Origin: a virus
Taxonomy: Duplodnaviria; Heunggongvirae; Uroviricota; Caudoviricetes
DNA length: 64,000 nt
Strand: one strand, 5' to 3'
Virus record (IMG/VR): IMGVR_UViG_3300012344_000014
Coordinates: 42,581-106,580 of that record
Part shown: positions 2,630 through 31,444 of the stretch, one piece after another
Numbering within the stretch: position 1 is the stretch's first letter
Layout: every line of letters begins with the position of its first letter
Made by a program: the position numbers and the translations under genes
The notes under the pieces: generated by a model
The model's database searches: none
Seen by the model: only the letters and a program-made list of their open reading frames with translations
What the model was told of the DNA's origin: nothing

Positions 2630-3811
2630 ATGGATATGGCAGACAAAATTTCTCTCGGCCGCGTTGTGACCGTACCGCGCGGCAAATATGACGCGAGCGC
2701 GGAATACAAAAAATAGGACATTGTGGAATATGAGGGCAACGGTTACATCGTGCTCAAGGACGTGAGCGGCACGGCGCCGACCGGCGCGAACGATGACCCG
2801 AACTATTCGCTTATCAGCCGGCGGGGGGCGACTTATACCCCGTCGGTGGACACAAGCGGGAACCTTACATGGGCAAACAACGCCGAACTGGAGAACCCGA
2901 CGGCGCGCAACATCACGGGGCCGAAGGGCGAACAGGGCGACCCCGGCAAGAACTTTACGATTAAGGGTGTATATGCGACGCTTGCAGCTTTGCAGGCAGG
3001 CGTACCAGCTCCGGCGCAGAGCGACTTCTATGCGGTGGGCACGGCCGGAGCGTATGAAGTTTACATGTGGAACAACAGCGCGTGGCTGAACATGGGATCG
3101 CTTCATGGCCCCGCAGGCCCCGCGTTCATTCCGAGCGTGGATGACGCCGGCAACCTGAGCTGGAGCGCGATTGAAGGCTACACCACGCCGACGACAAAAA
3201 ACATCAAAGGCCCTGCGGGCGACGTATGGAAGCCGACAGTGGCGGCGGATGGCGGAATCAGCTGGACGAAGGACAACACAGCGACTGCGCCGGCGGCTGC
3301 GAACATCAAGGGGCCTCAGGGCATTGCGGGGCCTGCGTTTGTGCCTACGGTGGCGGACGACGGCACGCTGAGCTGGGCACCTATTGACGGTTACACAACA
3401 CCGGCATCGAAAAACATTATGGGGCCGAACAAGATCACGGCGAACACGGCGACCGATTTCCCAAACACATCAGGGACGCAACGTTCCGGCATGCTGCGGG
3501 CGACCGGCGGAAAGGTGACGCTGGCTGTCGCGGGGCTGGATTACGCGGCTCCTCCGACCGTTACATCCATCACCCTGACGGCGGCGGGATGGACAGAGAA
3601 GGCGCAGACCATCAGCACAGGGCTGAGCATGGTGACGGCGAGCAACACAATTATTGTGGAGCCCGCGCCGGCCTCTGTCGCCGTATGGCGGGAGTGCGGA
3701 ATTTATTGTTCTGCACAAGCTGCGGGCAGCCTTACATTCACCTGTGTTGAGGACGCTCCCACGGACGCGGTAACTGTGAACGTCATGGCGATGGACACGA
3801 CGACGGCATAA
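2630..3811 (+). CDS. tail fibre protein 1 (read through in-frame TAG 2714-2716)
   Basis: ATG 2630 after a GGAGGG RBS is in frame with track ORF 2723-3811; only TAG 2714 separates them. Contains a short collagen-like GPKGEQGDPGK stretch. The C-terminal ~70 aa (TLTAAGW...YCSAQAAG.LTF.C) is shared with fibres 2 and 3. Confidence 0.75.
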
Positions 3812-4547: not shown

Positions 4548-5759
4548 ATGCCTCAGACCACAATTGCAACTGAGATTGCGCGTATACAGACAGATAGAAA
4601 TACAATCAGAACAAAATAGGTCGACCTTGGCCTTGCAACTTCGACGGCGACGCTGGACGATTTAGCAGCCGCGATTGAGGGGATCGAAAACAGGGGCGCG
4701 GTCAACGCCAGTGTCACTGAAGGCAACACCTATACCATCCCGAAGGGTTATCACAACGGGAGCGGCACCGTCGCGGGCGTTGCGGGCGGCGGCAACTACA
4801 CGCTGCAGGCGAAGAGCATCACGCCCACAAAGAAGGGACAGAACGTCACTTCCGACGACGGGTATTACGGCCTGTCTGCTGTAACCGTCGCGGCGATCCC
4901 CGAAGCTTATCAGGACGTTTCGAGCACAACTGCTGCGGCCGGGAATGTCTTGGCTGGTAAAGTGTTCGTCACGGCGGCGGGCACAGTCACGACCGGTACG
5001 ATGGTCAATAACGGCGCGGTTGCAAAGACATTGGATGCATCGACGACCAGCTATACCGTTCCTGCCGGATACCACAGCGGCGCTGGAAAAGTGCAGATCG
5101 TGACGGAAACCAAGTCTGTCACGCCTGCGGAATCTGCGCAGGACGTCACGCCGACAACCGGTAAGGTGCTGAGCAAGGTAACCGTCGGCGCAATCCCGGC
5201 CAAGTACGCGGACGCGACCGACGTGAGTGTTACGGCCGATAAGCTGCTCAAGGACGAAACCGCAATCGGCTGGGACGCGGAGGCGGAGGCCCCTGTGGCC
5301 GTGACCGGCACCATGCCGAATAACGGGGCTATCTCAAAGACACTGGACACAACGACAGCCAGTTATACCATTGCGAAGGGCTATCACGACGGTACCGGCG
5401 TGATTAAGCTGGTAACGGAAACCAAGTCCGCTACCCCGACCGAATCCACGCAGACAATTTCCCCGACAGCCGGCAAAGTACTTTCGAGCGTCACTGTGAA
5501 TCGTATTCCGACCAAGTACAAGGACGCGACCGGCATGACCGCCACGGCGGCGGGGATGCTGGCGGATACGACGGCGATCGGCTGGGACGCCGCCAAGTCG
5601 CTCCCTGTTGTGCTGACCGGTACAATGGCAAATAATGGCAGCGTTACTACCACCATCGACGGCCTGACGACCACTTCGGTTTCTATCCCTGCCGGTTACA
5701 CGACTGGCGGAACTGTTTCTCTCACTGATGATATTTATACCGCTCTTGCGGCGATTTAA
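4548..5759 (+). CDS. tail protein with ~90-aa tandem repeats (read through in-frame TAG 4617-4619)
   Basis: AAGGAG RBS then ATG 4548. The frame stays open to 5759 apart from TAG 4617. The repeat NNGA..KTLD....SYT.P.GYH.G.G recurs four times, and the first copy lies upstream of track ORF 4950-5759. Confidence 0.75.
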
Positions 5760-8789: not shown

Positions 8790-9608
8790 ATGATTTTCAA
8801 CAGAATGATCGGCGGCGGCGGGAAAGCGACGATAACATACAGCGGAACCCACACGACCGAAAGCTATACATTAAACGGGCAGACCTATACGTAGTATAAA
8901 ATTACCGGCTCGGGTACATTAACCGTCAAAGGCAAAGCGAAAGGCGTCAAGGTGTGGCTTTGCGGAGGTGGGGCAAACGGATTGGGTGGAGATGCTTCTG
9001 GTGGCGGGCGTGGCGGCGGCGGAGCGTTTTGTGCTCAGTATGACAGCCAAAAGTTATCCGGCGTATACACGATTGCAATCGCAAGTGGCGGTGGGAACAG
9101 CAGTATAACCACAAACGGGAACGTTGTTTTCTTAGCAAATGGAGCTAGCGGCGCGAACGGCGGCACGGGCGGCGGCGGCTCGGACGGCACTGGCGGCACG
9201 GGTGACGGAGTGACGAAGTATCCGTTCAGTGATTCCACCACTTTTCAATGTCATTGCGCGGGAGGCGGCGGCGGTTCAGGTAAGTATGTCACAAACTATG
9301 ATTGGGATAACTACACAGAATATTCTAATGTAGCTTACGCCGGGAATGGCGGTTCCAACGGCGCGGCAGGCGGTAAAGGCTCGTCACCCGTAACTTACAG
9401 CGCACGTAATGCTCCCGGAGGAAGCGTCGGCGGCGGAACCGGTGGCTCTAAGTCCGCGGGAAGCGCTGCGACGTTCTATGGGAGCGGTGGAGGTGGCGGC
9501 GGGAGCGAAGATTATTCCATTTCGCACGACCCCGGCTACGCAAACCGGAGTTACAGCGGCGGTTCCGGCTACCAAGGCATTGTATACTTACTCGTTCCAA
9601 TTGAATAA
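8790..9608 (+). CDS. glycine-rich protein, paralogue 2 (read through in-frame TAG 8892-8894)
   Basis: ATG 8790 is in frame with track ORF 8952-9608. The segment TYT-TAG-YKITGSGTLTV aligns with TYTQYTITGSGTLTV of paralogue 1. Confidence 0.75.
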
Positions 9609-13848: not shown

Positions 13849-14250
13849 ATGAATAAAGTGTTTTGCATTTTGCTCACATAGGTTTTTATGATGACAGTAT
13901 GCGTTGGTATCGCCGCGGCGGAGACAGCGGCTGAACCGACCGCTCCTGTGGCACCTGTGACTGAACCGGACGCTGCCGGTGCTTTCGACCTGACCGAACT
14001 GGCAGTGGCGGTGCTATGCTTTGTGCTCGGCCTGTTGACCACGATCGTGACGGGCGTAGTTCGAAAGAATTTCAACAAGAACAAGCTCACCAAGCAATAC
14101 GACGAACTGTGGGCCCTCATCGGACAGAAACTGGAACAGGCGGGGCTAAAGGTCGACCGCGCGGCTATTGAGGCGGCGCTGAAACAGATGAGTGCCGCGG
14201 CACTGAAGGAGCTCGCCAAAGCGTTTAATAATGACGAACAGGCTGAATAA
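13849..14250 (+). CDS. membrane/secreted protein upstream of the endolysin (read through in-frame TAG 13879-13881)
   Basis: AAGGAGG RBS then ATG 13849, in frame with track ORF 13888-14250. The N-terminus MNKVFCILLT-TAG-VFMMTVCVGIAAA looks like a signal peptide, and a second TM segment is present (LAVAVLCFVLGLLTTIVTGVV). Confidence 0.6.
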
Positions 14251-15158
14251 TGAACATCAAGGTTAAGCTCACGCGTAAAACAAACGCGGACTATTATCAT
14301 GCTGCCAAAGGGGATGTTGTTTCCATCCCCTTCGAGCAGTATTTACTGGGCGTTGTGGCGAGCGAGATAGGAGTCGCCCCGCTGGAGGCATGCAAAGCAC
14401 AGACCATCGCGGCTCGAACATACGCGCTCCCGTATCTAACGAAGGGCGTGCCCATCAGCGACGCGTCCTCTACGGCGCAGGCGTATCGGGCGGAGCGGGC
14501 TGTAGACCCTGCTTATGAAAACGCGCATCGCGGCGTAAAAGCAACGGCCGGACTCGTGCTCTATTATGACGGCAAACCTCTGACAAGCTGCCCGTTCAGC
14601 AAGTCAAATGGCGGGCGCGAAATCAGCAACGCGGAGCGTTGGAATTCAACGGCGCTCCCATACCTGCCTTCGCAGGATGACCCGTGGGACTTGGCGGCTA
14701 CAAACGGAAAGAAGTTGGGACACGGCGTGGGCATGAGCCAGGAAGGCGCGAAGTACGCGGCGGGCACGCTCGGCAAAACCTGCGAGGAAATTCTCGCGTT
14801 TTATTATCCGGGGTGCGAAATACGCCCCGCGCAAGAAAAAGAGGTGCCGATAACAATGATTGGAACGGTAACGACCGCGAACGGCGGCGCGCTCAATATG
14901 CGGAAATATCCAGGCGCTTCGGCTGACCGGATTCTGAAGATTCCTAATGGGGCTGAAGTGAATATCCTGAGCACGGAAACGATCACGGACGGGTGGTACG
15001 AAGTGGAGTACAATGGGCAAACGGGGTATGTTATGGCCGCCTATGTGTCGGTGCGTGGTGAATCCGAGCCTAGTGCCTACACGGTCGGCGTCCGGTTCGA
15101 CACAAGAGCCGAGGCCGAAGCGTTCAGAGCCTTGCTTCAGCAGGCAAAAATATATTGA
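14250..15158 (+). CDS. endolysin: SpoIID/LytB-like domain plus C-terminal SH3b
   Basis: SpoIID-type motif YLLGVVASEIG...EACKAQTIAARTYAL. SH3_3-like C-terminus GALNMRKYPG...GWYEVEYNGQTGYVMAAYV. Confidence 0.8.
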   Translation: MNIKVKLTRKTNADYYHAAKGDVVSIPFEQYLLGVVASEIGVAPLEACKAQTIAARTYALPYLTKGVPISDASSTAQAYRAERAVDPAYENAHRGVKATAGLVLYYDGKPLTSCPFSKSNGGREISNAERWNSTALPYLPSQDDPWDLAATNGKKLGHGVGMSQEGAKYAAGTLGKTCEEILAFYYPGCEIRPAQEKEVPITMIGTVTTANGGALNMRKYPGASADRILKIPNGAEVNILSTETITDGWYEVEYNGQTGYVMAAYVSVRGESEPSAYTVGVRFDTRAEAEAFRALLQQAKIY

Positions 15159-15173
15159 CAGGAGTGATTCCTG

Positions 15174-15488
15174 GTGGAATGGCTAATTCAATTCCTGGTA
15201 AAGTATTGGGTTGAGTAGCTGCTGACGGCGGTCGTTGGAGCGTTCGTCGCGTATATCAAGAAAGAGGCGAGCACGCAAAAAGCGCTCAGACACGGAATGG
15301 TGGCGCTGCTGCGGGACCGGCTTTATCAGGCACACAATCAATACGAACATCTCGGGTATTTTCCAATCGATGCGCGCGAAGTGGTCGAGGATATGTTCAA
15401 ACAATATATAACGCTCGGCGGGAACGGCATTGTCCGGCATTTGAAAGAGGCGCTGGACGAACTCCCCACTGAGCCAGGGAAACAATGA
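15174..15488 (+). CDS. holin-like membrane protein (read through in-frame TAG 15216-15218)
   Basis: GGAG RBS 9 nt before GTG 15174, in frame with track ORF 15297-15488. The N-terminal TM segment WLIQFLVKYWVE-TAG-LLTAVVGAFVAYI is present only if TAG is read through. Confidence 0.55.
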
Positions 15489-15766
15489 AACAAAATCTTT
15501 CTAAACCCGAGACTTCGAAAATTATTCTTTTCAGAACTTTCTGGATATTCTGGGCGCTGGTTGTGCTTGTTATTGTGATGATCGCTTTGTTTCCCGCGGT
15601 AGGGGATTATATGATCGATGTACTGCAGACCGCGGCCACATTGGCCGGGGCGGTTCATGTCGGATATTTCGGAAAAGCTGGTATAGAAAATTTCAAGAAG
15701 ATTGAGTCTGCGATGAGAAATTCTGTGGACGATGATGTCTATGACGACGAAGACTGCGAAGGATAA
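15485..15766 (+). CDS. membrane protein (second holin candidate)
   Basis: 93-aa ORF with an ATGA overlap to the previous gene. TM segment IILFRTFWIFWALVVLVIVMIALF. Confidence 0.6.
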   Translation: MKQNLSKPETSKIILFRTFWIFWALVVLVIVMIALFPAVGDYMIDVLQTAATLAGAVHVGYFGKAGIENFKKIESAMRNSVDDDVYDDEDCEG

Positions 15767-15776
15767 AGAAAAAATT

Positions 15777-15826
15777 TGACCCTGCTACTTCCTTTCCGGA
15801 GGTGGCAGGGTCATTTTTTGTTTTTG
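15777..15826 (+). terminator. rho-independent terminator at the end of the late/lysis operon
   Basis: TGACCCTGC (15777-85) pairs with GCAGGGTCA (15805-13), followed by TTTTTTGTTTTT. Confidence 0.7.
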
Positions 15827-15904
15827 GACGCATGCAAATGCAGGAGATGTAGTTCATTGTGTAGTATAGTAGTTCCTTACGTAGTGTAAAGGAAGGGTTC
15901 CCCT

Positions 15905-17527
15905 TCATAAGGAAACATTCTATTGGTCGAGCTTCCCGGCGAACTTGTAGTAAATTTCTATTTTCTGCGTTGGTTTGCCATTCTGGTCACAGCGTCTATC
16001 GTGGACTACGATTTTGTCGATCAGCGCATTGAGCATCGGGATAGTCAGTTTGGTTGGATGGGTGTAACGTTTGACCATGTTAGCCCATTCGTTAAGACCT
16101 CTTTGGGTTTCGTCGGTAGCTCGTTGTGCTTCTTCGGCGGCAGCGATGAATTCTTGAAGGGCGGTTTGCTCGTCTTGGTATTTTTTGAGCAGCGTCGAGA
16201 AATTGTTCGGAGTGATGTTTCCTTCGGCGCGATCCTCATAGAGTGAGGCGAGCATCCCGTCTATTTTTCGTAGACGCCGCTTTTTATCATCAAGCTTCGC
16301 TTGCTCCTTGTCCCCACTAGACTGAGTTGCTTTGCGCGAAGAATTCATAATCTCCTGGGCAAAATCTATTTCGTTCCCAGCGAGTGTCGAGGTCCAATAC
16401 TGTATCCGTGATAGCACATAATTGTAGAGGGTAGACTGCCTTATGTAATGCGCGGTGCAGTGTTCTTTACCGAATTCCGAATATTGCCGGCAGACGTAGG
16501 CTTTATCGTCGGGAGCATAGCAGGGACGGGCTTTCAACGCTTTCCCGCAGGTTGAACATTTTAGCAGACCGGCGAAAAGCTGGGGCGTCCCATCCCCGCA
16601 GGAACGACGCCGCCGTGAAATATTTTCCTGAACCCGCTCGAATGTCTCGCGCGATATAAGAGGCGGATGGGTATTTTCTACCCGGTAAAACTCATCAGCG
16701 GAGTTGTGAATTCGTTTTTTGCTTTTGTACGAAATCTTTTGCCTGCGGTAATGAATCGTATTTCCAATGTATGTTTCATCCATCAGTATGGAACGCACGG
16801 CGGAGCTTTGCCAGAAGCTTTTCTTCTCTTCGGCGGCGTTCTCATAGTATTGCGAATACGCGCCGTAGCGGCTATAGCCAACCCAGCCCGGGGTAGGGAC
16901 TTTGGACGTCCTCAGATACCTTGCGATTACATTGTAGCCGTTTCCTTCCAGCGCAAGCGCGTATATCTTTTCGATGATCCAGCGGGTGTCTTCGTCGATG
17001 AGGAGTTTGCCTTTTTCTTTCGGACTCCATATATAACCGAGCGGCGGTGTGGGGCCTAGGCGTTCGCCTTTTTCATATTTCGCTTTTAGCGCGGCCTTTA
17101 CTTTCCGGCTGGTGTCTTTGGCGTACCACTCGTTGAAGAGGTTCTTAAAAGGGGAGAAGTCGCTCATACCTTTCTCGGAGTCTTCGCCGTCGTTTACCGC
17201 CACATAGCGGACGCGCTTCTCAGGGAACACGTATTCCAAGTAGCGATCCACCTGAATGTGTTCGCGCCCCAACCGGGAGAGGTCTTTTGTGATAACGCAA
17301 TTCAACGCGCCTTTGTCAATGTCCGCCATCATACGTTGAAACGCCGGTCGGTCAAAATTTGTACCAGACCATCCATCGTCGACGTATTCATCATAAATCG
17401 CAATGTTGTTGTCTTCGCAATATTGATGAAGAATCCGGCGCTGCGTTTCAATGCTGCCGCTGTCGCCCGGCTCTCCGTCATCGTTGCTTAGCCGCATGTA
17501 AAGAGCGGCTACCCAGGGTTGTTTCAT
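15905..17527 (-). CDS. large serine recombinase (integrase)
   Basis: Resolvase-type N-terminus (ALYMRLSNDDG...SIETQR), recombinase and zinc-ribbon regions and a C-terminal coiled coil. AAGGAGG RBS before ATG 17527. The frame meets TAG at 15920-22, then TGA at 15905-07. Confidence 0.9.
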
Positions 17528-17594
17528 TCCCATCCTCCTTTCGATAGAGAAACAACCCACATTTGCATGCGGGTTGATTATAGCATAAGTGGAA

Positions 17595-17756
17595 TTAAGA
17601 CGCAATTTTAAGATTGCGAAGGATGAATTCTTTGAAGAGGTCGGCGAATGGTTGGCCGTCCGCAGCGAAATGTTCTGTTATAAGAATTTTCACTTTGCCG
17701 GCGTCAAAGCATTTTTGTTCAGTCAATAGTATATTCTTCTCTGCGATTCCGAACAT
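17595..17756 (-). CDS. small hypothetical protein upstream of the recombinase
   Basis: AAAGGAG RBS then ATG 17756; 53 codons (MFGIAEKNILLTEQKCFDAGKVKILITEHF...) ending in TAA 17595-97. Below the track length cutoff. Confidence 0.4.
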   Translation of the reverse strand: MFGIAEKNILLTEQKCFDAGKVKILITEHFAADGQPFADLFKEFILRNLKIAS

Positions 17757-17871
17757 GGCATTCTCCTTTAATTTTTCTCAAACAGTCCAGGCAAATGTAT
17801 TCGTGCGAAAATAATCCAGCCGGTTCATAGAAGACGTTGGTCAGATCACGGCCACACATACAGCAATACAA
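17719..17871 (-). CDS. small Cys-rich (CxxC...CxxC) protein
   Basis: AAAGGAGGG RBS before TTG 17871 (alternative ATG 17859). The sequence YCCMCGRDL...YICLDCLRKI suggests a zinc ribbon. Confidence 0.3.
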   Translation of the reverse strand: MYCCMCGRDLTNVFYEPAGLFSHEYICLDCLRKIKGECHVRNRREEYTID

Positions 17872-17901
17872 AGCAGTCCCTCCTTTGACGAGACAGGTAG
17901 A

Positions 17902-18225
17902 TCATTCCCCATAAAGAATTTCGACCCCATAAGCCTTAGCCGCCTCATGTTCAAGCCGGCAGCCGCGTGCCTGCTCCCAACCATTGCAAAAGTAAGCGGC
18001 ATGACACAGGCTCATATTTTCAAGGCTCTTTGCGAGAAAAGACAAGGGAATCTGAACGACGCCGCGCTCGGTCATCGCCTCCTTGTTGTACCATTCATCG
18101 GTAAAGGGTGTATTGACGACAACATAGCCCATGTTCTCCAGCGCCTTAATGGCACGGTTGCGGGTTTCAATAATTTCCTGTTCGGTTTTGCCAGCCATCG
18201 GCTGAGATAACATTGCCTTCTTCAT
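17902..18225 (-). CDS. DUF4406 / nucleoside 2-deoxyribosyltransferase-like protein
   Basis: 107 aa; the pattern QPMAGK...NP...CHAAYFCNGWEQARGCRLEHEAA recalls DUF4406 (from memory). Confidence 0.5.
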   Translation of the reverse strand: MKKAMLSQPMAGKTEQEIIETRNRAIKALENMGYVVVNTPFTDEWYNKEAMTERGVVQIPLSFLAKSLENMSLCHAAYFCNGWEQARGCRLEHEAAKAYGVEILYGE

Positions 18226-18254
18226 ATTTTAATATTCCTTTCTAAAATGCGATG

Positions 18255-18263
18255 TGTTACAAT
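18255..18263 (+). promoter_or_regulatory. extended -10 promoter (TGTTACAAT)
   Basis: TGnTACAAT lies 20 nt upstream of the small + strand ORF at 18283. Confidence 0.45.
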
Positions 18264-18282
18264 GTAAGTGGAGGTGGCGCAT

Positions 18283-18444
18283 GTGACAGACAACGAGAAA
18301 AAGAAAATAGGCGCAGAACTTGATAAGCTGAGTGAAGCTGTAGAGAAGATCCAAGAATCCGCCGATGTACCAGGGCTCAAAGATGCGCTTGAAGCAATTT
18401 ATAATCTGCTGGAGAAAATTATATCCGAGGAAGGGTGGCAGTAA
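18283..18444 (+). CDS. small + strand hypothetical protein (53 aa)
   Basis: GGAGGTG RBS then GTG 18283. The predicted sequence is helical and acidic, and the hairpin at 18433-18466 follows. Confidence 0.4.
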   Translation: MTDNEKKKIGAELDKLSEAVEKIQESADVPGLKDALEAIYNLLEKIISEEGWQ

Positions 18445-18466
18445 TTATTCTGCCGCCCCATTTTTC
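18433..18466. terminator. hairpin terminator between convergent genes
   Basis: GGGTGGCAG pairs with CTGCCGCCC (one G-U pair), followed by CATTTTTCTC. Confidence 0.5.
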
Positions 18467-18633
18467 TCTGAGGAAAACTGTTCATTGGTAGCTTCAATTT
18501 CTGCAAAGCACGGGACAAAAGTAACGCGCCTCATTTCCTTCATGGCCGCATCATATTCTTTTTGAGCGGCAAGAAGACGCTTTAAGGCTTTGCTCATTTC
18601 CTCTGGTTCAGGGGCGTTAAAAATATATTGCAT
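18445..18633 (-). CDS. hypothetical protein
   Basis: 62-aa ORF in an operon with the neighbouring - strand genes. Confidence 0.45.
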   Translation of the reverse strand: MQYIFNAPEPEEMSKALKRLLAAQKEYDAAMKEMRRVTFVPCFAEIEATNEQFSSEKNGAAE

Positions 18634-18648
18634 TGTATTTATCTCCTT

Positions 18649-19080
18649 TTAATTATATTTCATTTTTTGAAGAAGGCTTCTGTATAGGGGTTCCAGCTGC
18701 GGTGAGGACGCTTTGAATTTTTTCTGTTCGCAATTATGCGTCTTACCGGCTTTATAAAAACCATGACCGACTTCATGATACCGAGAGCGGTCCATATAGG
18801 CATATTCCATTTCAATATCCGGAAGCTGCTTTGTAATGCCTTTATAAAGCATAAAGGGCGGCATATAAACCGTTTTGAAGGCAAGCAGCCGCTCATCATT
18901 AAACCCTGGATCGAATGTAACGGGAGATTTCTCCTTCACGCCGGTTTCAGGAATTGCGGGATGCTGTTTAAGATAAGCGCCGCTGGGCTTAAATTTAACG
19001 ACGCCTTTCTTGCCGCACAGTTTCAGGACGGCTTCATCGAGCTGCTCTTTTGTGCCGGTGATGCGCAGATAGTTTTCCAT
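18649..19080 (-). CDS. hypothetical protein
   Basis: 143-aa ORF with a TAATG-type junction to the upstream gene. Confidence 0.55.
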   Translation of the reverse strand: MENYLRITGTKEQLDEAVLKLCGKKGVVKFKPSGAYLKQHPAIPETGVKEKSPVTFDPGFNDERLLAFKTVYMPPFMLYKGITKQLPDIEMEYAYMDRSRYHEVGHGFYKAGKTHNCEQKKFKASSPQLEPLYRSLLQKMKYN

Positions 19081-19397: not shown

Positions 19398-19410
19398 TGT
19401 GTTCTCCTTA

Positions 19411-19419
19411 TGATATAAT
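19411..19419 (+). promoter_or_regulatory. extended -10 promoter (TGATATAAT)
   Basis: Perfect TGnTATAAT located 10 nt before the 5' arm of the 19429-19740 element. Confidence 0.55.
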
Positions 19420-19428
19420 TGTGTCGGC

Positions 19429-19740
19429 GGGGAGAGGAGCGGAGGCGATCGCGTTTACATAGCCGCACCTGATGCATCGGGATGCGTAGCGCTATGTGAA
19501 AGGAGCGATGTGCCAATGGAACATGTTTGTGACGTTATGATCGAACTGTTTCTTGAGTACGTCGTCAAAAAGGTGATCTCATAGATGAAAACCTGGCTGA
19601 CGGGGCAACTCGAAAAGGCCAGGAAAAACAAACCTGAGCCTAAGTACACTATTTGTACTTGGGAGCAGCATTGCCGGTAATAGAAACCGGCGGGGTTAAC
19701 GCGATCGCCCCTTAATATTGCTGTACCGCTCCATCTCCCC
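19429..19740 (+). other. stem-closed + strand cassette (structured transcript enclosing a small ORF)
   Basis: The 5' arm GGGGAGAGGAGCGGAGGCGATCGCGTT (19429-55) is complementary to AACGCGATCGCC...CCGCTCC.TCTCCCC (19698-19740), giving helices of 12+7+7 bp. Confidence 0.45.
19516..19680 (+). CDS. small ORF inside the stem-closed cassette (in-frame TAG 19582-19584)
   Basis: AAAGGAG RBS 10 nt before ATG 19516; 54 codons if TAG is read through, ending TAA-TAG. Alternatively a separate ORF from ATG 19585 with its own GGTGA RBS. Confidence 0.3.
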
Positions 19741-19806: not shown

Positions 19807-20019
19807 ATGCATAAGCCGTTAGGTAGCAAAGAGGTTATCTCGATACTCGAAAAGTAGCAGTGGCGCAAGCTCAAAAACCGTGGTAAGGGAAGCCATACGG
19901 TTCTTGAGAACCCTGAGAACGGGCTCCACGTTACGGTACCCCGCAGCAAAGAACTCCCAGCGGGAACCTAGAAGAGTATCGGGCGGCAAACCGGTGTGAA
20001 TTTTGATGATCACCGGTGA
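19807..20019 (+). CDS. hicA: HicA-like mRNA-interferase toxin, copy 1 (in-frame TAGs at 19855 and 19969)
   Basis: AGGAGGTG RBS. The sequence ...EVISILEK-TAG-QWRKLKNRGKGSHTVLENP..HVTVPRSKELPAGT-TAG-KSIGRQTGV matches the HicA pattern (GSH ... VP ... GT.xSI.xQxG) only if both TAGs are read through. Confidence 0.65.
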
Positions 20020-21518: not shown

Positions 21519-21734
21519 TTGAAGAAGAACATATCTTCTCGGGAAGTTATCTCAATACTCAAAGAGCACGGATTCGTAGAAGACAAACGCCGGAGGACGG
21601 GCGGAGACACTATCTTTGTTAAACAGGGCTAGACGTCACACGTAAAAGTCCCCACAGGCCGGGAGTCGATACGAATCGGTACTTAGGTTAGTATCGAGAA
21701 ACAGTCCGGATTGCCCATTCGGTGTTAGCTGTAA
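21519..21734 (+). CDS. hicA: HicA-like protein, copy 2, divergent (in-frame TAGs at 21630, 21684 and 21726)
   Basis: GGAGGTG RBS then TTG 21519. REVISILKEHGF... and ...VKVPTGRESIRIGT-TAG-VSIEKQSGL are paralogous to copy 1, with TAG at the same GT-TAG-xSI position. GSH is replaced by GGD. TAA lies at 21732. Confidence 0.5.
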
Positions 21735-24556: not shown

Positions 24557-26855
24557 ATTCCTGTCCACCGAAATACCTCCGGTCATATTCATTCTTGCGC
24601 TCGGCCGACCACTTCGACACGCGGGTCAGATAGCCGATGATGCGCGTGGCATAATCCAGATTTTCACTGCTGCACTTTGGGCACTTCTCCAGCTTGTGCT
24701 TGCTGATATACCCGCAGTCGTTGCAGATGGTATTGGGAACGTTGAAGGTAAAATACGAGCAGCCTTCATGAATCGCGTTGAGAATGAGCAGCTCGTACTG
24801 GCGAGCGGTGAGGTGTTCTTCGAGGTTGATATGGCAGGCGCTGCCGCCGTCGAGATTGCGGATATAACGATCGCCATGCAGCCGAATCTTATCAAGAACC
24901 GTTGTTTTAGGATCTTCAACCACGAAGAAATAGCTGTTATAACACGCTCTCGGGACGGAGAGCCCGTCGGCTTTATCCCATTTGGCGTTCTTCACGCCTA
25001 AGCTTTCGGCTGGCACGTACTCCGTGTTAAACATAACGCCCGGCTCGGCATCGGCCACGTTCCGCCGGTGAATCGTATCAAGGATGAGATCAGTGAACTC
25101 GCCGTAAGCCTTGTTGTCACCGACCGGAATGCCCAGATACTCCGCCGCCTCGACCAGACCGTTGATGCCAACGGTAAGATACTGCTTCTCCGGCGAAACG
25201 AACCCTGCGTCATAAAGCGGGATCATATGCTTGGCCTGCGCATCCTTCACCATCGCGTTATACGCTTTCAAATAGCGATGGACATGCGCGGTCAGATCGT
25301 CAAGCGAGGCTTTGACCTTGGCCAGATCGCCGCCGCAGCCCTGAACGAGCCGGTTGATATTGATGGTCATGACGCGCTTGGAGCCGGTCGCGATGCCGCC
25401 CGCGCCAAGGCTGTAAGTGAACTGGTTTTCAACGATGTTGTTTTTCAGGCGGCAGTTATGCGTAATTACTCCGGAGGGAAGCATGAAGTAGGGCTCGCAC
25501 CCATCATCAACCTCGAGGCAGTAAACATAATCGTATGTATTGGCGCTCTCGATCACCTCAGATACCGGGCGGTATGTATACATCCTGCTTTCGGGATCCC
25601 AACACTGGACTTCATCCCCCTCGACGAGCTCCTTCGCCTGGACGTCTCCGCGCCGGGTGGGGAAAAGATGGTTATCCGTCACCTCATACATATGGCGGGC
25701 GTTCGGCTTGACGTCGATTGTGATAAAATACATCTGACGGCCGGGGAGACGAATGAGAGTCGCGGGAACCACTTCCTCACCGAGCATAACCCGAACACGA
25801 AAATCCTGTTCCTGTTCAAGCATCTGGTAAAGACGCTCTGCAGCCCCGACAAGCAATGTGTTATGCTGGTCCCAGACGGAGAACAGTGTATCCGGCGCAA
25901 AGCAGCACGAACTCAAGCTATCCACGCTATCGCTGGTATAAGTGAAAAAACTGTGCCCTTCGGCATACATCTCGGCGATATGCTTCAGTGCCCGCTGGTC
26001 AACAGCCGTCTTGCCGTTGTTCAGGAGAGAGAACGTTTCGACCGGGAAGGTGATGATCTTGCGGAGCCGCTCCTGATTAAACCACTTCATAAACCGAACC
26101 TGCAGCCACCAGAGGGACTCCCAGAGATCGGTCATTACTGTGCCGTCCGGGAAGGCGAAACCTTCGAACAGCCCGCGGAAATACGGCTCATCAAAATAGG
26201 AAATATTCCAGAAGACGGCCTGATTGCCGCGCGCCGCCGCCGGTTGATTGACCGAGTAGACAACCTGCGCGAAGGTATCGGTGATCACGTTATCAATGGT
26301 GCGCTTGCGGCCGAACAGTTCGGCTTGCGTATCCGGCTTCAGATAATAATCTTCGCCGTATTCCTTGACGAGGAAATAGTTCATATAGGCGAGAAACTCC
26401 GGGGTGGCAATCGCGCCGAGCACCTGAGCGGAAGCGGCGAACACCAGATTGACAAACCCGCCGGCGAAACTTTGCAGCGTCTTGGGAGCGTCCGACGTGC
26501 CGCCCAGCCCCTTCAAGCCGTGCAAAAGAAACGGGTACATAGTGATGCTAGCGCAATAGATCTGCGGGGTCTGGCCGGTTTCATCATGGCAATAGACACG
26601 ATGGGTTTCGAGGTTATCAATGTAGCTGTCGGCCTCTTCCTCGCCGTACATGGCGGTGAGCATATCATGCATCATCAACCGGCTGGTATAGATGCGGCCG
26701 CGCTTACCGCTTTCGGACGCGAGGGTGGCCAGATTCTTTGAACTGACATTGGAGTTTGGATCATAGTCGCTGCTTTCGGCGGCGCATTTTTCATCCATAT
26801 AACGTCTGATGAAATTTGCTTCCGGACGATAGCGCGCATATTTGTCGGGGATCAT
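24534..26855 (-). CDS. nrdD: anaerobic (class III) ribonucleotide reductase, intein-containing
   Basis: 773-aa ORF; Zn ribbon CNDCGY..KCPKC, glycyl-radical motif TRIIGYLTR, and the active-site SSC/CRL motif split by an insert. Confidence 0.95.
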   Translation of the reverse strand: MIPDKYARYRPEANFIRRYMDEKCAAESSDYDPNSNVSSKNLATLASESGKRGRIYTSRLMMHDMLTAMYGEEEADSYIDNLETHRVYCHDETGQTPQIYCASITMYPFLLHGLKGLGGTSDAPKTLQSFAGGFVNLVFAASAQVLGAIATPEFLAYMNYFLVKEYGEDYYLKPDTQAELFGRKRTIDNVITDTFAQVVYSVNQPAAARGNQAVFWNISYFDEPYFRGLFEGFAFPDGTVMTDLWESLWWLQVRFMKWFNQERLRKIITFPVETFSLLNNGKTAVDQRALKHIAEMYAEGHSFFTYTSDSVDSLSSCCFAPDTLFSVWDQHNTLLVGAAERLYQMLEQEQDFRVRVMLGEEVVPATLIRLPGRQMYFITIDVKPNARHMYEVTDNHLFPTRRGDVQAKELVEGDEVQCWDPESRMYTYRPVSEVIESANTYDYVYCLEVDDGCEPYFMLPSGVITHNCRLKNNIVENQFTYSLGAGGIATGSKRVMTININRLVQGCGGDLAKVKASLDDLTAHVHRYLKAYNAMVKDAQAKHMIPLYDAGFVSPEKQYLTVGINGLVEAAEYLGIPVGDNKAYGEFTDLILDTIHRRNVADAEPGVMFNTEYVPAESLGVKNAKWDKADGLSVPRACYNSYFFVVEDPKTTVLDKIRLHGDRYIRNLDGGSACHINLEEHLTARQYELLILNAIHEGCSYFTFNVPNTICNDCGYISKHKLEKCPKCSSENLDYATRIIGYLTRVSKWSAERKNEYDRRYFGGQEYENQTES
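25455..25904 (-). mobile_element. mini-intein (150 aa) in nrdD
   Basis: The insert starts CFAPDT directly after SLSSC and ends VITHN, followed by +1 Cys (CRLKNN). Removal restores the SCCRL-type motif. No endonuclease motifs were seen. Confidence 0.85.
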
Positions 26856-27064
26856 TCAACAGATACTCCTTTGCTGAGATATTTCATGGCCTGCGCAAAG
26901 TTCATGAGATTGCCGTCCTTGTCTTCGAGGGCGGGGACAACCTGAATGCCTTTTGCCTTCAGCTGCTCCGCATCGGAAACAATATTGCATGGGATCTAAA
27001 GCTGCGCGAGCCGCTCGGCAAGCAGGTCGCACATGGGGCAGCCGGGAAGAGTATAAAGCGTCAT
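26852..27064 (-). CDS. NrdH/glutaredoxin-like redoxin (read through in-frame TAG 26996-26998)
   Basis: AAAGGAG RBS then ATG 27064. MTLYTLPGCPMCDLLAERLAQL-TAG-IPCNIVSD...VVPAL carries a CPxC motif and cis-Pro VP. The TGA overlaps the nrdD ATG (ATGA). Confidence 0.7.
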
Positions 27065-27082: not shown

Positions 27083-27122
27083 TCATATAATAAAGGGAAC
27101 ATTTTCATGCCCCCTTTTTCAC
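27083..27122 (-). promoter_or_regulatory. conserved intergenic element, copy 1 (candidate phage-specific promoter)
   Basis: The - strand reads TGAAAAAGGGGGCATGAAAATGTTCCCTTTATTATATGAAAGGAG, just upstream of the nrdH-like/nrdD/nrdG operon. Near-identical copies lie at 32556 and 51774. Confidence 0.5.
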
Positions 27123-27628
27123 ATTTGAAAAATTTTATTTTGAATAAGCCACGCGACGCCTACCGCAACCGCATCAGATTCGTCGTCGCAGGCGTAACGC
27201 TGAGGGCCGACATAATCCTCAAGCATCTCGGCCACGCGGTCTTTCTCCGCATTGGCGTCGCCGGTGACGATGCGCTTGGTCATGCGAGGATCGATCTCTT
27301 CAAACTCTCTGCCTGTCAAATGCCAGGCATAAAGATCGGCCACGCCGACAACCTTATGCAAAACCCCGATGGTCTTCATCTGATAGCGGCCGGGGTAAAT
27401 CGCTTTCTCTCGAACCAATATGGCGTCCGGATAAGCGGTCATATATCGCTTCTATTCGCGCGCAATCTCCAGAAGCATCTGGCCATGCGTTTTCTTGCGG
27501 GCATACTTGTTGTTGACATTGCTGAGCTCGCGCACGGTGATCGTATTATTCTCACAATGAAGCAGCGCAAAGCCGGGGCGATGGAGCGAGAGATCGCAGG
27601 CGAAGACATCGACGGCGGTTTCAGGCAC
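27119..27628 (-). CDS. ruvC: RuvC-like Holliday junction resolvase (read through in-frame TAG 27452-27454)
   Basis: GAGGGGA RBS then GTG 27628. The N-terminal half (VDVFACDLSL...LLEIARE) and C-terminal half (YPDAILVRE...TGDANAEKDRV...DESDAVAVGVAW) are in one frame, separated only by TAG. Confidence 0.75.
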
Positions 27629-27977
27629 AGGGCGTCCCCTCGCTTTCACGCGCCAGCTTATCCGTCTCATAGGCGAAGAGCGCGCGGACAATGGCGTGCG
27701 CCAGATGATCATCGCTGATATCGCCGGCAAGATAAGCGTACAGATGTTGGATGCAATGCCCGATATGCTCCTCGGGCGGGATTTTTGTATAGTTACGGCA
27801 GGCGAAGGTTTCGCCGTATTTCTCAGCACCGGCCTTCGCGACTTCAGCCGCGGCAAACATTGCATGCACGGGCAGAAGCTGGAAAGCATAAGGGCTGCGG
27901 CTTTGCTTGCCGCCTTCGCTGTTCACGACGACGGGGACGTCTTTACCGACCCCGAAGATTACATTATCGCCAAGCAT
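27621..27977 (-). CDS. MazG-like / dATP-dGTP diphosphohydrolase N-domain-like protein
   Basis: The pattern AGAEKYGE...EEHIGHCIQHLYAYLAGD..DDHLAHAIVRALF; family recalled from memory. Confidence 0.45.
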   Translation of the reverse strand: MLGDNVIFGVGKDVPVVVNSEGGKQSRSPYAFQLLPVHAMFAAAEVAKAGAEKYGETFACRNYTKIPPEEHIGHCIQHLYAYLAGDISDDHLAHAIVRALFAYETDKLARESEGTPCA

Positions 27978-30419: not shown

Positions 30420-31080
30420 TCTTTTCCTCCCATGTGATATCATCAAAAATAACGGGAAACAGTTTCTGGAATTCGCAAAGCAACGGGCGCATGAGCGAGC
30501 GCATTTCCGGATAAGCGGCCGACGAGGTGCGCAGCTGAAAAATATGCCGCCATTCCCGCAGGTTTGCCTTCATGACGATGATGCAGGCGGTAGAATTGGG
30601 GAGCACCTTGCGCGCGTCTTCCGCCTTCATGCCGCACTCATACCTGAGATACCGGTAATAAGTTTCGGCATGCTCCATGGACGCATCCCAGCCGCGGGAA
30701 GCGCACCATGTTTTCGCATCCAGATCGGGGCCTTCGGCTGGAAGATAGATATCCGGCCGGATGAAGCTGATATCTCCGGTCTTATCATCTTCGACATAGC
30801 GCTGGCTCTGAACGCAGAAACTGGGGAGCCGGTGCCGTGTGATCTCGGCCAGGACATCGCGCCCGGTGACGAGCTCAACCATGGCGTCGCCAAACTCAAT
30901 AGGGGCTTCATGCCCCCGCTTTATAAGCCCGCCAAGAAACTTGCGCCAGCTATCGGCCGTGATTTTATCATGCGAGCGATAGCAATTACGGGCGGCGTAT
31001 TCGATAAGGCGCAGCGTTTCCAGTGCGCGCTCCGGCGTGGACGGCGAGAGAATCTTAAAAGACTGGTTAATTACCTTCAT
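30412..31080 (-). CDS. thyX: flavin-dependent thymidylate synthase
   Basis: ThyX signature RHRLPSFCVQSQRY. Start at ATG 31080 (MKVINQSFKIL). Confidence 0.9.
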   Translation of the reverse strand: MKVINQSFKILSPSTPERALETLRLIEYAARNCYRSHDKITADSWRKFLGGLIKRGHEAPIEFGDAMVELVTGRDVLAEITRHRLPSFCVQSQRYVEDDKTGDISFIRPDIYLPAEGPDLDAKTWCASRGWDASMEHAETYYRYLRYECGMKAEDARKVLPNSTACIIVMKANLREWRHIFQLRTSSAAYPEMRSLMRPLLCEFQKLFPVIFDDITWEEKNA

Positions 31081-31444
31081 CGAAGGTTGATTCCTCCTTT
31101 CCTTCTTCATTATTAATGAGGGAATCCGCCTCGACGCCGTCCGTGTTTTCAGGATCGGTTTCAGCGTATTCGCTATCCCGATCATAGAGGTTGCCGCGCA
31201 TATCGCCGTTGAGGCGCATGAGCAGCGTTTCAAACCGGAGAGAGGAGAGCATAACGGTGCCCTCGTTAAAGAGAATGACGGAGCGGATTTTGCGCCCGAC
31301 CGTCGCATCCAAGAGATGCTTACGGCCTTTGGCAGCTTTGACCTATTCTTTCGAAGTCATGGTGCGCGGGTTAAGAACGGCAATGACATGATTGGCGCAG
31401 ACGGCATGCTTCAGGCCAGCGTTGACAAAGCGCAGTTCTTCCAT
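31067..31444 (-). CDS. RemA/DUF370-like protein with acidic tail (read through in-frame TAG 31343-31345)
   Basis: ATG 31444 abuts the upstream stop. MEELRFVNAGLKHAVCANHVIAVLNP..SKE-TAG-VKAAKGRKHLLDATVGRKIRSVILFNEG.VMLSSL..ETL..R follows the RemA pattern across the TAG, in frame with track ORF 31067-31312. Confidence 0.65.

What the first reader, a model, noticed from the sequence alone, without database searches (positions are those of the whole stretch)
15905..15922. TAG followed closely by a canonical stop: dual-code-compatible gene ends
The serine recombinase frame hits TAG at 15920-22 and then TGA five codons later (15905-07). The same layout appears at HicA-like 2 (TAG 21726, TAA 21732) and small membrane protein 1 (TAG 38407, TGA 38419). 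The 19516 ORF ends TAA-TAG. Such ends give almost the same protein whether or not TAG is suppressed. That is what one would expect for an integrase that must work both in a standard-code host and in the recoded state.
Basis: seen in the sequence. Interest (0 to 1): 0.5.

Follow-up and report, generated by a model that had tools for sequence, protein, structure and literature searches.

The report
Integrase TAG stop in TAG-recoded phage
The integrase gene really does end in TAG with a TGA five codons later, but that spacing is what chance gives; the window is a phage that elsewhere reads TAG as an amino acid (apparently leucine), and the other cited "gene ends" are simply such sense TAGs.

Summary
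All coordinates check out. The serine recombinase ends TAG (15922-15920), then AAT GTT TCC TTA, then TGA (15907-15905). The TAG sits at the family's normal C-terminus.

The proposed pattern does not hold:
- 22% of ordinary TAA/TGA-terminated genes in this phage have a second TAA/TGA within 5 codons. Shuffled flanks give 0.20.
- One close relative lineage has TGT instead of TGA, then 98 open codons.
- Three other TAG-terminated early genes have the next TAA/TGA 37, 75 and 143 codons away.
- HicA-like 2, membrane protein 1 and the 19516 ORF carry further internal TAGs, so they cannot be made without TAG decoding.

The context is real. The window is part of a ~112-kb phage with in-frame TAGs inside conserved domains of tail, lysis-region, toxin and small membrane-protein genes. 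Those TAG positions are conserved in relatives. Opposite TAG, relatives have Leu (36/61 and 19/23 sites), not Gln, and they carry CUA-anticodon tRNAs with tRNA-Leu-like features.

That integrases of recoded phages avoid internal recoded stops, and may end on one, was already noted by Borges et al. The TG of the "backup" TGA lies in a conserved ~50-bp palindrome.

The parts
15920..17533 (-). Large serine recombinase CDS (ATG 17533 or 17527) ending at TAG 15922-15920. No internal TAG.
   Evidence: Pfam Resolvase + Recombinase + Zn_ribbon_recom + DUF4368; DUF4368 matches to residue 535/537, profile 66/67. 102 of 117 homologs end ...IYYRFIGKID; the window ends ...IYYKFAGKLDQ, one residue longer.
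15908..15919 (-). Four codons AAT GTT TCC TTA (N V S L) between the TAG and the TGA. They would be added, after the TAG residue, if the TAG is decoded.
   Evidence: The same 15 nt with one substitution occur in relatives L019-L023.
15905..15907 (-). In-frame TGA, the 'backup stop'.
   Evidence: It is TGA in the window and in L019/20/21, and TGT in L022/23. T and G pair in the outer stem of the conserved hairpin; the third base is unpaired in the L019/L022 folds.
15873..15914 (.). Imperfect palindrome next to the recombinase stop (arms 15873-15889 and 15898-15914). It is either an attP-like site or an RNA hairpin.
   Evidence: 17-nt arms at 76% in the window; 24-nt arms at 83% and 79% in L019 and L022, where the left arm starts at the G of TAG; dG -14.5 (z -2.1) window, -24.9 (z -7.4) L019, -20.4 (z -5.9) L022. 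Conserved in alignment A1.
15777..15813 (.). GC-rich hairpin with T-runs on both sides, between the convergent recombinase gene and gene 15485-15766. Likely a bidirectional terminator.
21519..21734 (+). HicA-like 2. In-frame TAGs at 21630-32, 21684-86 and 21726-28; real stop TAA 21732-34.
   Evidence: The TAG at codon 56 and the terminal 'TAG CTG stop' are conserved in L019/L022, with the stop switching TAA to TGA. In the paralog HicA-like 1, MAFFT places its codon-55 TAG opposite this codon-56 TAG, and that TAG aligns with V or L of solved HicA structures.
38176..38421 (+). Small membrane protein 1. In-frame TAGs at 38272-74 and 38407-09; real stop TGA 38419-21.
   Evidence: Its read-through tail T-x-RKR is the same length as the tail of paralog 2 (ARKAQ), so the real end is the TGA.
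38548..38805 (+). Small membrane protein 2, with two in-frame TAGs (codons 33 and 59). The second aligns with a Leu (TTA) of paralog 1.
19516..19683 (+). The 19516 ORF. In-frame TAG at 19582-84, stop TAA 19678-80, followed by TAG 19681-83.
   Evidence: The TAG at codon 23 is conserved in L019/L022. TAA stops translation in either code, so the following TAG is irrelevant.
19807..20019 (+). HicA-like 1, with two in-frame TAGs (codons 17 and 55).
   Evidence: phmmer to PDB HicA 4c26 (E = 2.5e-5); TAG 55 lies opposite V/L in the 'GT-V/L-(K/R)SI' motif. Both TAGs are conserved in L019.
2630..3811 (+). Tail-fibre-like gene with TAG at codon 29. The ATG at 2630 closes the gap to the upstream gene only if TAG is read.
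   Evidence: PHROG tail-fibre hit over residues 10-68 spans the TAG.
4548..5759 (+). Structural gene with TAG at codon 24. In the standard code, 110 codons downstream of the TAG have no start codon.
8790..9608 (+). Structural gene with TAG at codon 35.
   Evidence: Paralogs and orthologs have Leu (CTG, TTA, CTT) or Gln (CAG) at this position.
13849..14250 (+). Membrane or secreted protein directly upstream of the endolysin, with TAG at codon 11 inside the hydrophobic N-terminal segment.
   Evidence: The TAG is conserved in L019 and L022.
15174..15488 (+). Membrane protein directly downstream of the endolysin (14250-15158), with TAG at codon 15 in the N-terminal hydrophobic segment.
   Evidence: PHROG phrog_4105 hit over residues 9-102 spans the TAG. 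The TAG is conserved in L019/L022.
27119..27649 (-). RuvC-like resolvase with an in-frame TAG at 27454-27452.
   Evidence: The downstream piece alone hits phrog_159 from profile position 167. With TAG read as L the hit covers residues 15-172 at E = 1e-13. The TAG is conserved in L019.
42202..43116 (-). PAPS-reductase-like gene with an in-frame TAG at 42717-42715.
   Evidence: The two halves hit consecutive parts of phrog_424: profile 136-255 and 282-369.
26852..27064 (-). Thioredoxin/glutaredoxin-like gene with TAG at codon 23.
   Evidence: The TAG is conserved in L019/L022.
31067..31444 (-). Gene with TAG at codon 34. Its ATG abuts the upstream gene only if TAG is read.
   Evidence: Relatives have Leu at this position.
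60045..60326 (+). Small membrane protein 3, with two in-frame TAGs in hydrophobic segments.

Best explanation
The window is part of a ~112-kb SPbeta-like, probably temperate phage of Clostridia. TAG has two uses in it.

(1) TAG as a sense codon. It occurs in-frame in about 18% of genes: tail genes, the two membrane-protein genes flanking the endolysin, HicA-like toxins, small membrane proteins and a few DNA-metabolism genes. It is most likely decoded as leucine by a phage-borne CUA-anticodon tRNA.

(2) TAG as an ordinary terminator. A few early-strand genes still end on it, including the large serine recombinase. That TAG lies at the recombinase family's canonical C-terminus.

If the recombinase mRNA is translated while the suppressor is active, the product gains five residues (Leu-Asn-Val-Ser-Leu) and stops at the TGA. 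The closeness of that TGA is best explained as incidental. Its T and G belong to the outer stem of a conserved ~50-bp palindrome that starts next to the stop codon (an attP-like site or an mRNA 3' hairpin), and its third base is free to vary.

The 'terminal TAGs' of HicA-like 2 and membrane protein 1 are sense codons near the ends of genes that need TAG decoding anyway.

Shown: the sequence layout; the family terminus; the in-frame TAGs and their conservation; the TAG-to-Leu correspondence; the CUA tRNAs in relatives; the chance-level statistics. Inferred: the timing (TAG is a stop early and Leu late); charging of the tRNA with Leu; temperate lifestyle; the role of the palindrome.
For: Layout and family terminus; a 49%-identical homolog ends one residue earlier with TGA.

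Chance level:
- 21.6% of TAA/TGA-terminated genes have a second TAA/TGA within 5 codons.
- Shuffled flank gives P = 0.20.
- TAG positions near gene ends: 3 observed, 1.3 expected, P = 0.14.
- Other TAG-terminated genes have the next TAA/TGA at +37, +75 and +143 codons.
- The TGA is replaced by TGT in L022/L023, with 98 open codons following.

Palindrome.

TAG as a sense codon:
- Split PAPS reductase and RuvC.
- PHROG hits span the TAG in Dit, tail fibre, phrog_4105 and thioredoxin.
- ATG starts that close intergenic gaps appear only if TAG is read.
- TAG positions are conserved in relatives at 60-90% amino-acid identity.
- All 61 in-frame stops inside HSPs of more distant relatives are TAG.

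TAG as Leu:
- The window residue opposite relatives' TAG is L in 36/61 cases (V 6, I 3, Q 2).
- Within the window's own clade, 19 of 23 are Leu. These are mostly CTG/CTT, two mutational steps from TAG.
- The window's TAGs sit in transmembrane or signal-peptide segments.
- The HicA-like 1 TAG aligns with V/L of solved HicA structures.

tRNAs:
- 84-86-nt class II tRNAs with anticodon CUA and A73 in L006, L007 and L013. Their D-arm matches Clostridia tRNA-Leu and not tRNA-Ser.
- A 74-76-nt CUA tRNA sits in a Gly/Thr/Ala tRNA cluster upstream of the terminase region in L110/L111. These loci are ~86% nt-identical to L106, which is ~89% identical to the window phage.
Against: - Only 2 of 66 homologous recombinase genes in standard-code Clostridia genomes have a second TAA/TGA within 5 codons.
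- The 'TAG + 4 codons + TGA' layout is shared by two lineages, the window and L019. Weak selection for a nearby stop therefore cannot be excluded. The two lineages share ancestry and the conserved palindrome, so they count as one event.
- No suppressor tRNA was found in the 83 kb of this very phage that I could read. About 17-28 kb of the 112-kb contig was unreachable.
- There are no expression or proteomic data, so the timing model and the Leu charging are inferences.
- The close-clade CUA tRNA lacks the long variable arm typical of bacterial tRNA-Leu.
- No integrated copy was found, so the temperate lifestyle is inferred from the gene content only.
Confidence: 0.75

Rival explanations
1. Adaptive fail-safe. 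The TGA five codons after the TAG is maintained by selection, so that the recombinase is nearly identical whether TAG is a stop (host code) or a sense codon (recoded state).
For: - The recombinase is the only long gene that carries a TAG, and that TAG is terminal.
- The same TAG-N-(V/F)-S-L-TGA layout occurs in the 74%-identical L019 lineage, where it is followed by TAG TGA.
- Only 2/66 standard-code homologs have a second stop that close.
- The idea fits published observations on integrases of recoded prophages.
Against: - The frequency is at chance level within this phage.
- The L022/L023 lineage lost the TGA and has 98 open codons after the TAG.
- Three other TAG-terminated genes have no close backup.
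- The TG of the TGA is constrained by a conserved palindrome while the third base varies.
- The other three cited examples need TAG decoding anyway.
Confidence: 0.15
2. Code-state sensor. The conserved terminal TAG is kept so that the recombinase acquires a C-terminal extension once the suppressor tRNA is on: 5 aa here, 98 aa in the L022 lineage. That would change or switch off integrase activity during lytic growth.
For: The TAG stop is invariant in three lineages although about 26% of the protein's residues differ. The extension length differs widely between lineages.
Against: - A 5-aa tail is unlikely to change activity.
- The extension sequences are not conserved as protein.
- The invariance of the TAG is explained by the conserved DNA/RNA element that overlaps it.
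- There are no data on timing.
Confidence: 0.05
3. No recoding. The in-frame TAGs are pseudogene lesions, assembly errors or sites of truncated products, and all TAGs, including the recombinase's, are plain stops.
For: No suppressor tRNA was found in the readable 83 kb of this contig. TAG density is low, at 27 in about 25,000 codons.
Against: - The same TAG positions recur in independently assembled relatives at 60-90% identity.
- Only TAG, never TAA or TGA, interrupts conserved genes.
- Homology continues across the TAGs.
- Relatives carry CUA tRNAs.
- TAG aligns with Leu far above the background frequency of Leu.
Confidence: 0.03

Closest known systems
TAG-recoded temperate gut phages (Garnet and Topaz prophages) of Borges et al. 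(bioRxiv 10.1101/2021.08.26.457843)
   Same: - In-frame TAG in structural and lysis genes.
- Suppressor tRNA in part of the genomes.
[quoted passage not shown] - The window's contig comes from SRR1747039, a run accession close to those the paper names (SRR1747048 and SRR1747065).
   Different: - Those phages are ~24 kb, densely recoded, and were assigned TAG->Gln.
- The authors state that they saw only TAG->Gln and TGA->Trp in phages whose code differs from the host's.
- Here the genome is ~112 kb, TAG is sparse (about 18% of genes) and it aligns with Leu.
- Several early genes here still end in TAG.
Genetic code 15 in crAss-like and Lak phages (TAG->Gln, validated by metaproteomics; PMC9523058)
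   Same: TAG is reassigned in a phage whose host presumably uses the standard code. Recoding is concentrated in late genes.
   Different: The amino acid differs. Gln lies opposite TAG in only 2/61 and 2/23 comparisons here, against Leu in 36/61 and 19/23. The tRNAs are Leu-like rather than Gln-like.
Leucine-inserting amber suppressors of E. coli (tRNA-Leu with anticodon CUA, e.g. supP), and TAG->Leu in chlorophycean mitochondria (codes 16 and 22). Both from my own knowledge.
   Same: A tRNA-Leu whose anticodon is changed to CUA stays a LeuRS substrate, because LeuRS does not read the anticodon. That gives a simple route to TAG = Leu without a phage-encoded synthetase.
   Different: The E. coli cases are laboratory or host suppressor alleles, and the mitochondrial ones are organellar codes. 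Here the tRNA is carried by a phage and TAG is used as a gene-specific sense codon. My searches of the held library found no report of TAG->Leu in phages.
Tandem or back-up stop codons downstream of leaky stops (described in bacteria, yeast and ciliates; from my own knowledge)
   Same: A second in-frame stop a few codons after the first limits the cost of read-through.
   Different: The defining excess over background is not seen here, and the backup is not conserved.
attP sites of large serine integrases (~40-50 bp imperfect inverted repeats beside int, e.g. phiC31 and Bxb1; from my own knowledge)
   Same: A ~45-54-bp imperfect palindrome lies directly beside the recombinase gene and is conserved in three lineages.
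   Different: No attL/attR junction or attB was found. The element also folds as a strong RNA hairpin in L019/L022, so a 3' mRNA structure is equally possible.

Membership tests
Stop-codon-recoded (alternatively coded) phage | In-frame stop codons inside conserved protein-coding genes, with homology continuing across them | tested here: met
   PAPS reductase halves hit consecutive profile parts. RuvC, Dit, tail fibre, phrog_4105 and thioredoxin hits span the TAG. HSPs with relatives run through conserved TAGs.
Stop-codon-recoded (alternatively coded) phage | Only one of the three stop codons is used in-frame | tested here: met
   61 of 61 in-frame stops inside HSPs of the relatives are TAG. 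In the close clade, 41 of 64 positions opposite an in-frame TAG are TAG again, and none is TAA or TGA.
Stop-codon-recoded (alternatively coded) phage | Phage-encoded suppressor tRNA with the matching anticodon | tested here: inconclusive
   None in the window or in contig positions 741-84,023. A CUA tRNA is present in L110/L111, which are ~86% nt-identical to L106, itself ~89% identical to the window phage. CUA tRNAs are also present in six IMG/VR relatives. The rest of the 112-kb contig could not be read.
Stop-codon-recoded (alternatively coded) phage | Integrase free of in-frame recoded stops | tested here: met
   There is no TAG in the 535-537 recombinase codons before the terminal one, and the tyrosine integrase at 51844-52800 also has none. 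At the observed TAG density this has P of about 0.56 by chance.
Genetic code 15 (TAG = Gln) | TAG aligns with Gln in homologs | tested here: not met
   Leu 36, Gln 2 of 61. Leu 19, Gln 2 of 23.
Stop-codon-recoded (alternatively coded) phage | Host uses the standard code | not testable with these tools
   The host is not identified. Recombinase homologs (at most 50% identity) lie in Oscillospiraceae, Acutalibacteraceae, Ruminococcus and Lachnospiraceae genomes. No integrated copy was found.
Adaptive back-up (tandem) stop codon | A second stop closer than after other genes or in shuffled flanks | tested here: not met
   21.6% of ordinary genes have TAA/TGA within 5 codons. The shuffle gives P = 0.20.
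Adaptive back-up (tandem) stop codon | Backup conserved in relatives and present after other TAG-terminated genes | tested here: not met
   It is TGT in L022/L023, followed by 98 open codons. The other terminal TAGs have backups at +37, +75 and +143 codons.
Large serine recombinase (phage integrase type) | Resolvase catalytic domain, recombinase domain and zinc ribbon, at full length | tested here: met
   Pfam PF00239, PF07508, PF13408 and PF14287. Length and C-terminus match 120 homologs.
Large serine recombinase (phage integrase type) | Catalyses attP x attB integration | not testable with these tools
   The only pointer is a candidate palindromic site beside the gene.
HicA toxin | Sequence similarity to solved HicA proteins over the whole domain | tested here: met
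   HicA-like 1 against 4c26 and 6g26, E = 2.5e-5, residues 5-63. The match runs through both TAG positions.

The most novel reading that the evidence does not exclude
This phage clade has reassigned TAG to leucine rather than glutamine, through phage-borne CUA tRNAs. One of these tRNAs is a class II tRNA-Leu look-alike. The other is a short-variable-arm derivative. The clade also keeps TAG in two roles at once. It is a sense codon that gates tail, lysis-region, toxin and small membrane-protein genes, and it is still a working terminator for early genes, including the recombinase. The meaning of TAG would then depend on when a gene is translated. The recombinase's TAG stop would be the visible trace of that time-dependent double meaning.
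Probability: 0.5. Interest if true: 0.75.

Novelty: new member of a known kind. Interest (0 to 1): 0.3.

Why it matters
For the finding itself, little changes. An integrase that stays readable in the host's code, and may end on the recoded codon, is the published picture for recoded temperate phages. The nearby TGA adds nothing beyond chance.

The context matters more, in three ways.

(1) Annotation. Standard-code gene calling truncates or splits about one gene in five here. Code 15 would insert Gln where the evidence points to Leu.

(2) Biology. TAG sits at codons 11-35 of tail and lysis-region genes, and inside toxin and small membrane-protein genes. That fits a translational gate opened only when the suppressor tRNA is present.

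(3) Code evolution. A sparse, Leu-decoding TAG reassignment in which TAG stops survive in early genes would be an intermediate, ambiguous stage of stop-codon capture. It is directly testable by metaproteomics.

Tried and rejected
- Megablast of window 1-20000 against the phage collection gave no match.
- The search for related loci with the 460-aa structural protein found no IMG/VR relatives. The recombinase gave only one 49% relative there. The genome-contig scan found only homologs at 50% identity or less, so there was no integrated copy or att junction to study.
- BLAST of the class II suppressor tRNA against the phage and E. coli collections gave nothing useful. I compared it instead with tRNA-Leu and tRNA-Ser found by ARAGORN in the fetched Clostridia loci.
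- A coding-potential control compared 'read-through' of TAG with TAA and TGA. It did not discriminate, because adjacent same-frame genes mimic read-through (6, 2 and 8 cases).
- A first all-frames TAG tally in the close clade was contaminated by non-coding frames, giving many TAG<->TAA pairs. I discarded it and repeated the tally on called genes only.
- I walked the contig with two extra protein searches to look for this phage's own suppressor tRNA. This reached relatives but not the missing part of SRR1747039_750.
- Simple stop-to-stop ORF length totals under each read-through were not informative at this TAG density.
- Seven literature searches found no report of TAG->Leu in phages. The final journal version of Borges et al. 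is not held.
Full report
**The observation**

On the minus strand the large serine recombinase reads ...TAC TAC AAG TTC GCC GGG AAG CTC GAC CAA TAG AAT GTT TCC TTA TGA. The TAG is at 15922-15920 and the TGA at 15907-15905.
- HicA-like 2: TAG 21726, CTG, TAA 21732.
- Membrane protein 1: TAG 38407, three codons, TGA 38419.
- The 19516 ORF: TAA then TAG.

**What the window is**

Pfam and PHROG annotation shows a phage.
- The plus-strand block (219-15766) holds tail, tail-fibre and collagen-like genes and a SpoIID+SH3 endolysin.
- The long minus-strand block starts with the recombinase. It continues with ClpP, PhoH, SHMT, NrdD, an intein-containing Pol III alpha, PARP, a ligase, a primase-helicase, a tyrosine integrase, AbiEii and Bro/ANT antirepressors.

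The window is positions 10,242-74,241 (reversed) of a 112,235-bp Logan contig from run SRR1747039. I joined the window to its flanks to get 83,283 bp of the same phage. Further upstream, relatives carry SPbeta-type YonB, YomX and YomU structural genes and a terminase.

**TAG is a sense codon in part of the genes**

- Two halves of a PAPS-reductase-like gene, in one frame and separated by a single TAG, hit consecutive parts of one PHROG profile.
- With TAG read as an amino acid, PHROG matches run straight through the TAG in RuvC (residues 15-172), the distal tail protein Dit (3-261), a tail fibre (10-68), phrog_4105 (9-102) and a thioredoxin-like protein.
- Several late genes gain ATG starts that abut the preceding gene. 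One of them (4548-5759) otherwise has 110 codons without any start codon.
- The same TAG positions recur in independently assembled relatives whose proteins are only 60-90% identical (L019, L022).
- In more distant relatives, found through the primase-helicase (62-67% identity), all 61 stops inside tblastn alignments are TAG.

TAG is sparse. There are 27 in-frame TAGs in about 25,000 codons, spread over roughly 18% of genes. They lie in:
- tail genes, at codons 24-35;
- the two membrane-protein genes flanking the endolysin, at codons 11 and 15;
- two HicA-like toxins;
- three small membrane proteins;
- a few DNA-metabolism genes.

**Which amino acid**

- Opposite the relatives' TAGs the window has Leu 36 times out of 61 (V 6, I 3, Y 3, Q 2).
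- Within the window's own clade, counting called genes only, 19 of 23 sense codons opposite a TAG are Leu. These are mostly CTG or CTT, which are two mutations away from TAG, so mutational adjacency does not explain the pattern.
- The window's TAGs lie in transmembrane or signal-peptide segments.
- In HicA-like 1 the second TAG aligns with V/L of solved HicA structures.

Two kinds of CUA-anticodon tRNA occur in relatives.
- Distant relatives carry 84-86-nt class II tRNAs with anticodon CUA and discriminator A73. Their D-arm (TGGCGGAATTGGC.TACGC) matches tRNA-Leu and not tRNA-Ser from the Clostridia loci I had fetched. The same tRNA pattern occurs in six IMG/VR contigs.
- Phages about 86-89% nt-identical to the window phage carry a 74-76-nt CUA tRNA in a Gly/Thr/Ala tRNA cluster upstream of the terminase region. 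Read by eye from the, 98 sequence, it has A73 and a similar D-arm.

I found no tRNA in the 83 kb of the window's own contig that I could read. The remainder of that contig was out of reach.

Borges et al. state that they observed only TAG->Gln and TGA->Trp in phages whose code differs from the host's. My searches of the held library turned up no report of TAG->Leu in phages.

**The recombinase end**

The TAG is the real end of the family.
- The Pfam DUF4368 match reaches residue 535 of 537, at profile position 66 of 67.
- 102 of 117 homologs end ...IYYRFIGKID, and the window protein ends one residue later at ...IYYKFAGKLDQ.
- A 49%-identical homolog stops at the same place with TGA.

The gene is therefore complete in the standard code, and read-through would add only five residues.

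**Is the close TGA more than chance? No.**

- Among 102 TAA/TGA-terminated genes of this phage, 21.6% have another TAA/TGA within 5 codons and 34% within 10.
- Shuffling the recombinase's 3' flank gives 0.20.
- Three of 27 in-frame TAGs lie within 5 codons of the real stop, against 1.3 expected (P = 0.14).
- Standard-code gene calling finds eight TAG-ended genes. Four of those TAGs are internal sense codons. The four true terminators are the recombinase (+5) and three small early genes in L018, whose next TAA/TGA is 37, 75 and 143 codons away. One of these is followed, one codon later, by the next gene's ATG, with that gene's GGAGG ribosome-binding site lying just upstream of the TAG.
- In close relatives (recombinase 74% identical), L019/L020/L021 read TAG AAT TTT TCC TTA TGA TAG TGA. 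L022/L023 read TAG AAT TTT TCC TTA TGT TAG, followed by 98 codons without TAA or TGA.
- One result points the other way: only 2 of 66 homologs in standard-code Clostridia genomes have a second stop within 5 codons. I cannot weigh that control, because many of those elements are related to each other.

**Why the sequence after the TAG is conserved**

The 15 nt after the TAG are more conserved than the coding sequence before it. They form the left arm of an imperfect palindrome:
- 24-nt arms at 83% and 79% complementarity in L019 and L022;
- 17-nt arms at 76% in the window, at 15873-15889 and 15898-15914.

As RNA the element folds at -24.9, -20.4 and -14.5 kcal/mol, with z-scores of -7.4, -5.9 and -2.1. 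The T and G of TGA pair in the outer stem. The third base is unpaired in the L019/L022 folds, and it is the base that differs (A or T). The element could be the attP site of the serine integrase or a 3' mRNA hairpin, and I could not decide between the two. Either way, it accounts for the TG without any need for a stop codon.

**The other examples**

- HicA-like 2 has TAGs at codons 38, 56 and 70. Its end 'TAG CTG stop' is conserved in relatives, with the stop switching from TAA to TGA. The TAG at codon 56 is conserved too, so the protein cannot be made without TAG decoding.
- Membrane protein 1 has a TAG at codon 33. Its read-through tail x-RKR has the same length as the tail of paralog 2, so the TGA is its real end.
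- The 19516 ORF has an internal TAG and ends with TAA, which is a stop in either code.

**Comparison with what is known**

Borges et al. reported that integrases of TAG-recoded Garnet and Topaz phages lack in-frame recoded stops. [quoted passage not shown] The recombinase here is a further example of that arrangement. In this phage, standard-code compatibility is also unremarkable, because most genes have no TAG.

**Verdict**

The sequence facts are confirmed. The claimed pattern of dual-code-compatible gene ends is not supported beyond the single recombinase, and there it is indistinguishable from chance and partly explained by a neighbouring palindrome. The more interesting result lies in the context: a sparse TAG reassignment that points to leucine, with TAG still serving as a terminator in early genes.

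Noticed in passing
window-wide; L006:15762-15846, L007:15806-15891, L013:15738-15821, L110:511-586, L111:508-584: TAG appears to be decoded as leucine, not glutamine. Leu lies opposite TAG in 36/61 and 19/23 comparisons. Relatives carry CUA-anticodon tRNAs: a class II form whose D-arm and A73 match tRNA-Leu, and a 74-76-nt short-variable-arm form in the closer clade that (read by eye from its sequence) also has A73 and a similar D-arm. I found no published report of TAG->Leu in phages in the held library.
   Followed up: yes
window 2630-3811, 4548-5759, 8790-9608, 13849-14250, 15174-15488, 26852-27064, 31067-31444; L016:5214-6293: Where late genes have a TAG, it is usually a single one near the 5' end, at codons 11-35. 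Two genes have it at codon 29. The TAGs in the two membrane-protein genes flanking the endolysin are conserved in relatives. This looks like a translational gate placed early in the reading frame.
   Followed up: partly
window 15873-15914; L019:11590-11643; L022:11578-11631: A conserved ~45-54-bp imperfect palindrome lies next to the recombinase stop; in L019/L022 its left arm starts at the G of TAG. It is a candidate attP of the serine integrase or a 3' mRNA hairpin. No att junction was found to test this.
   Followed up: partly
window 19516-20019, 21519-21734, 38176-38805, 60045-60326: Small plus-strand genes sit as islands inside the minus-strand early region: two HicA-like toxins, three paralogous small membrane proteins and a 54-aa ORF. 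They are the most TAG-dense genes, with 1-3 TAGs in 54-93 codons. They would be silent until TAG is decoded.
   Followed up: partly
L018:1408-1584, 4056-4250, 7635-7985 (the same contig, to the right of the window): Three small early genes end in TAG with no nearby TAA/TGA. For one of them the next gene's ATG follows one codon later in the same frame, with that gene's GGAGG ribosome-binding site lying just upstream of the TAG, so read-through would fuse the two proteins.
   Followed up: partly
window 32578-37494: The Pol III alpha subunit gene (1638-aa ORF) has an intein (Pfam Intein_splicing, residues ~526-937) inserted in it. The L006 ortholog has no intein but four in-frame TAGs. In L022 the NrdD gene carries an intein that the window's NrdD lacks.
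   Followed up: no
window 7677-8765, 8790-9608, 12750-13505: Three paralogous genes (~47-56% identical, Gly-rich, one with a Big_3 domain) lie in the tail-fibre region. Only one of them carries a TAG, where its paralogs have Leu or Gln.
   Followed up: no
window 51844-52800 and 54012-55567: A second recombinase (tyrosine integrase family) sits beside an RHH protein, with an AbiEii toxin-like gene nearby, in the early region. Neither the integrase nor the AbiEii-like gene contains a TAG.
   Followed up: no
window 38881-40083, 22067-23308: Unusual auxiliary genes for a phage: a WGR+PARP-domain protein and a full-length serine hydroxymethyltransferase.
   Followed up: no
L106:4051-5269 and L108:4869-6025: Standard-code gene calls leave gaps of about 1 kb in the structural module of relatives. 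These are probably genes fragmented by in-frame TAGs. I did not examine them.
   Followed up: no
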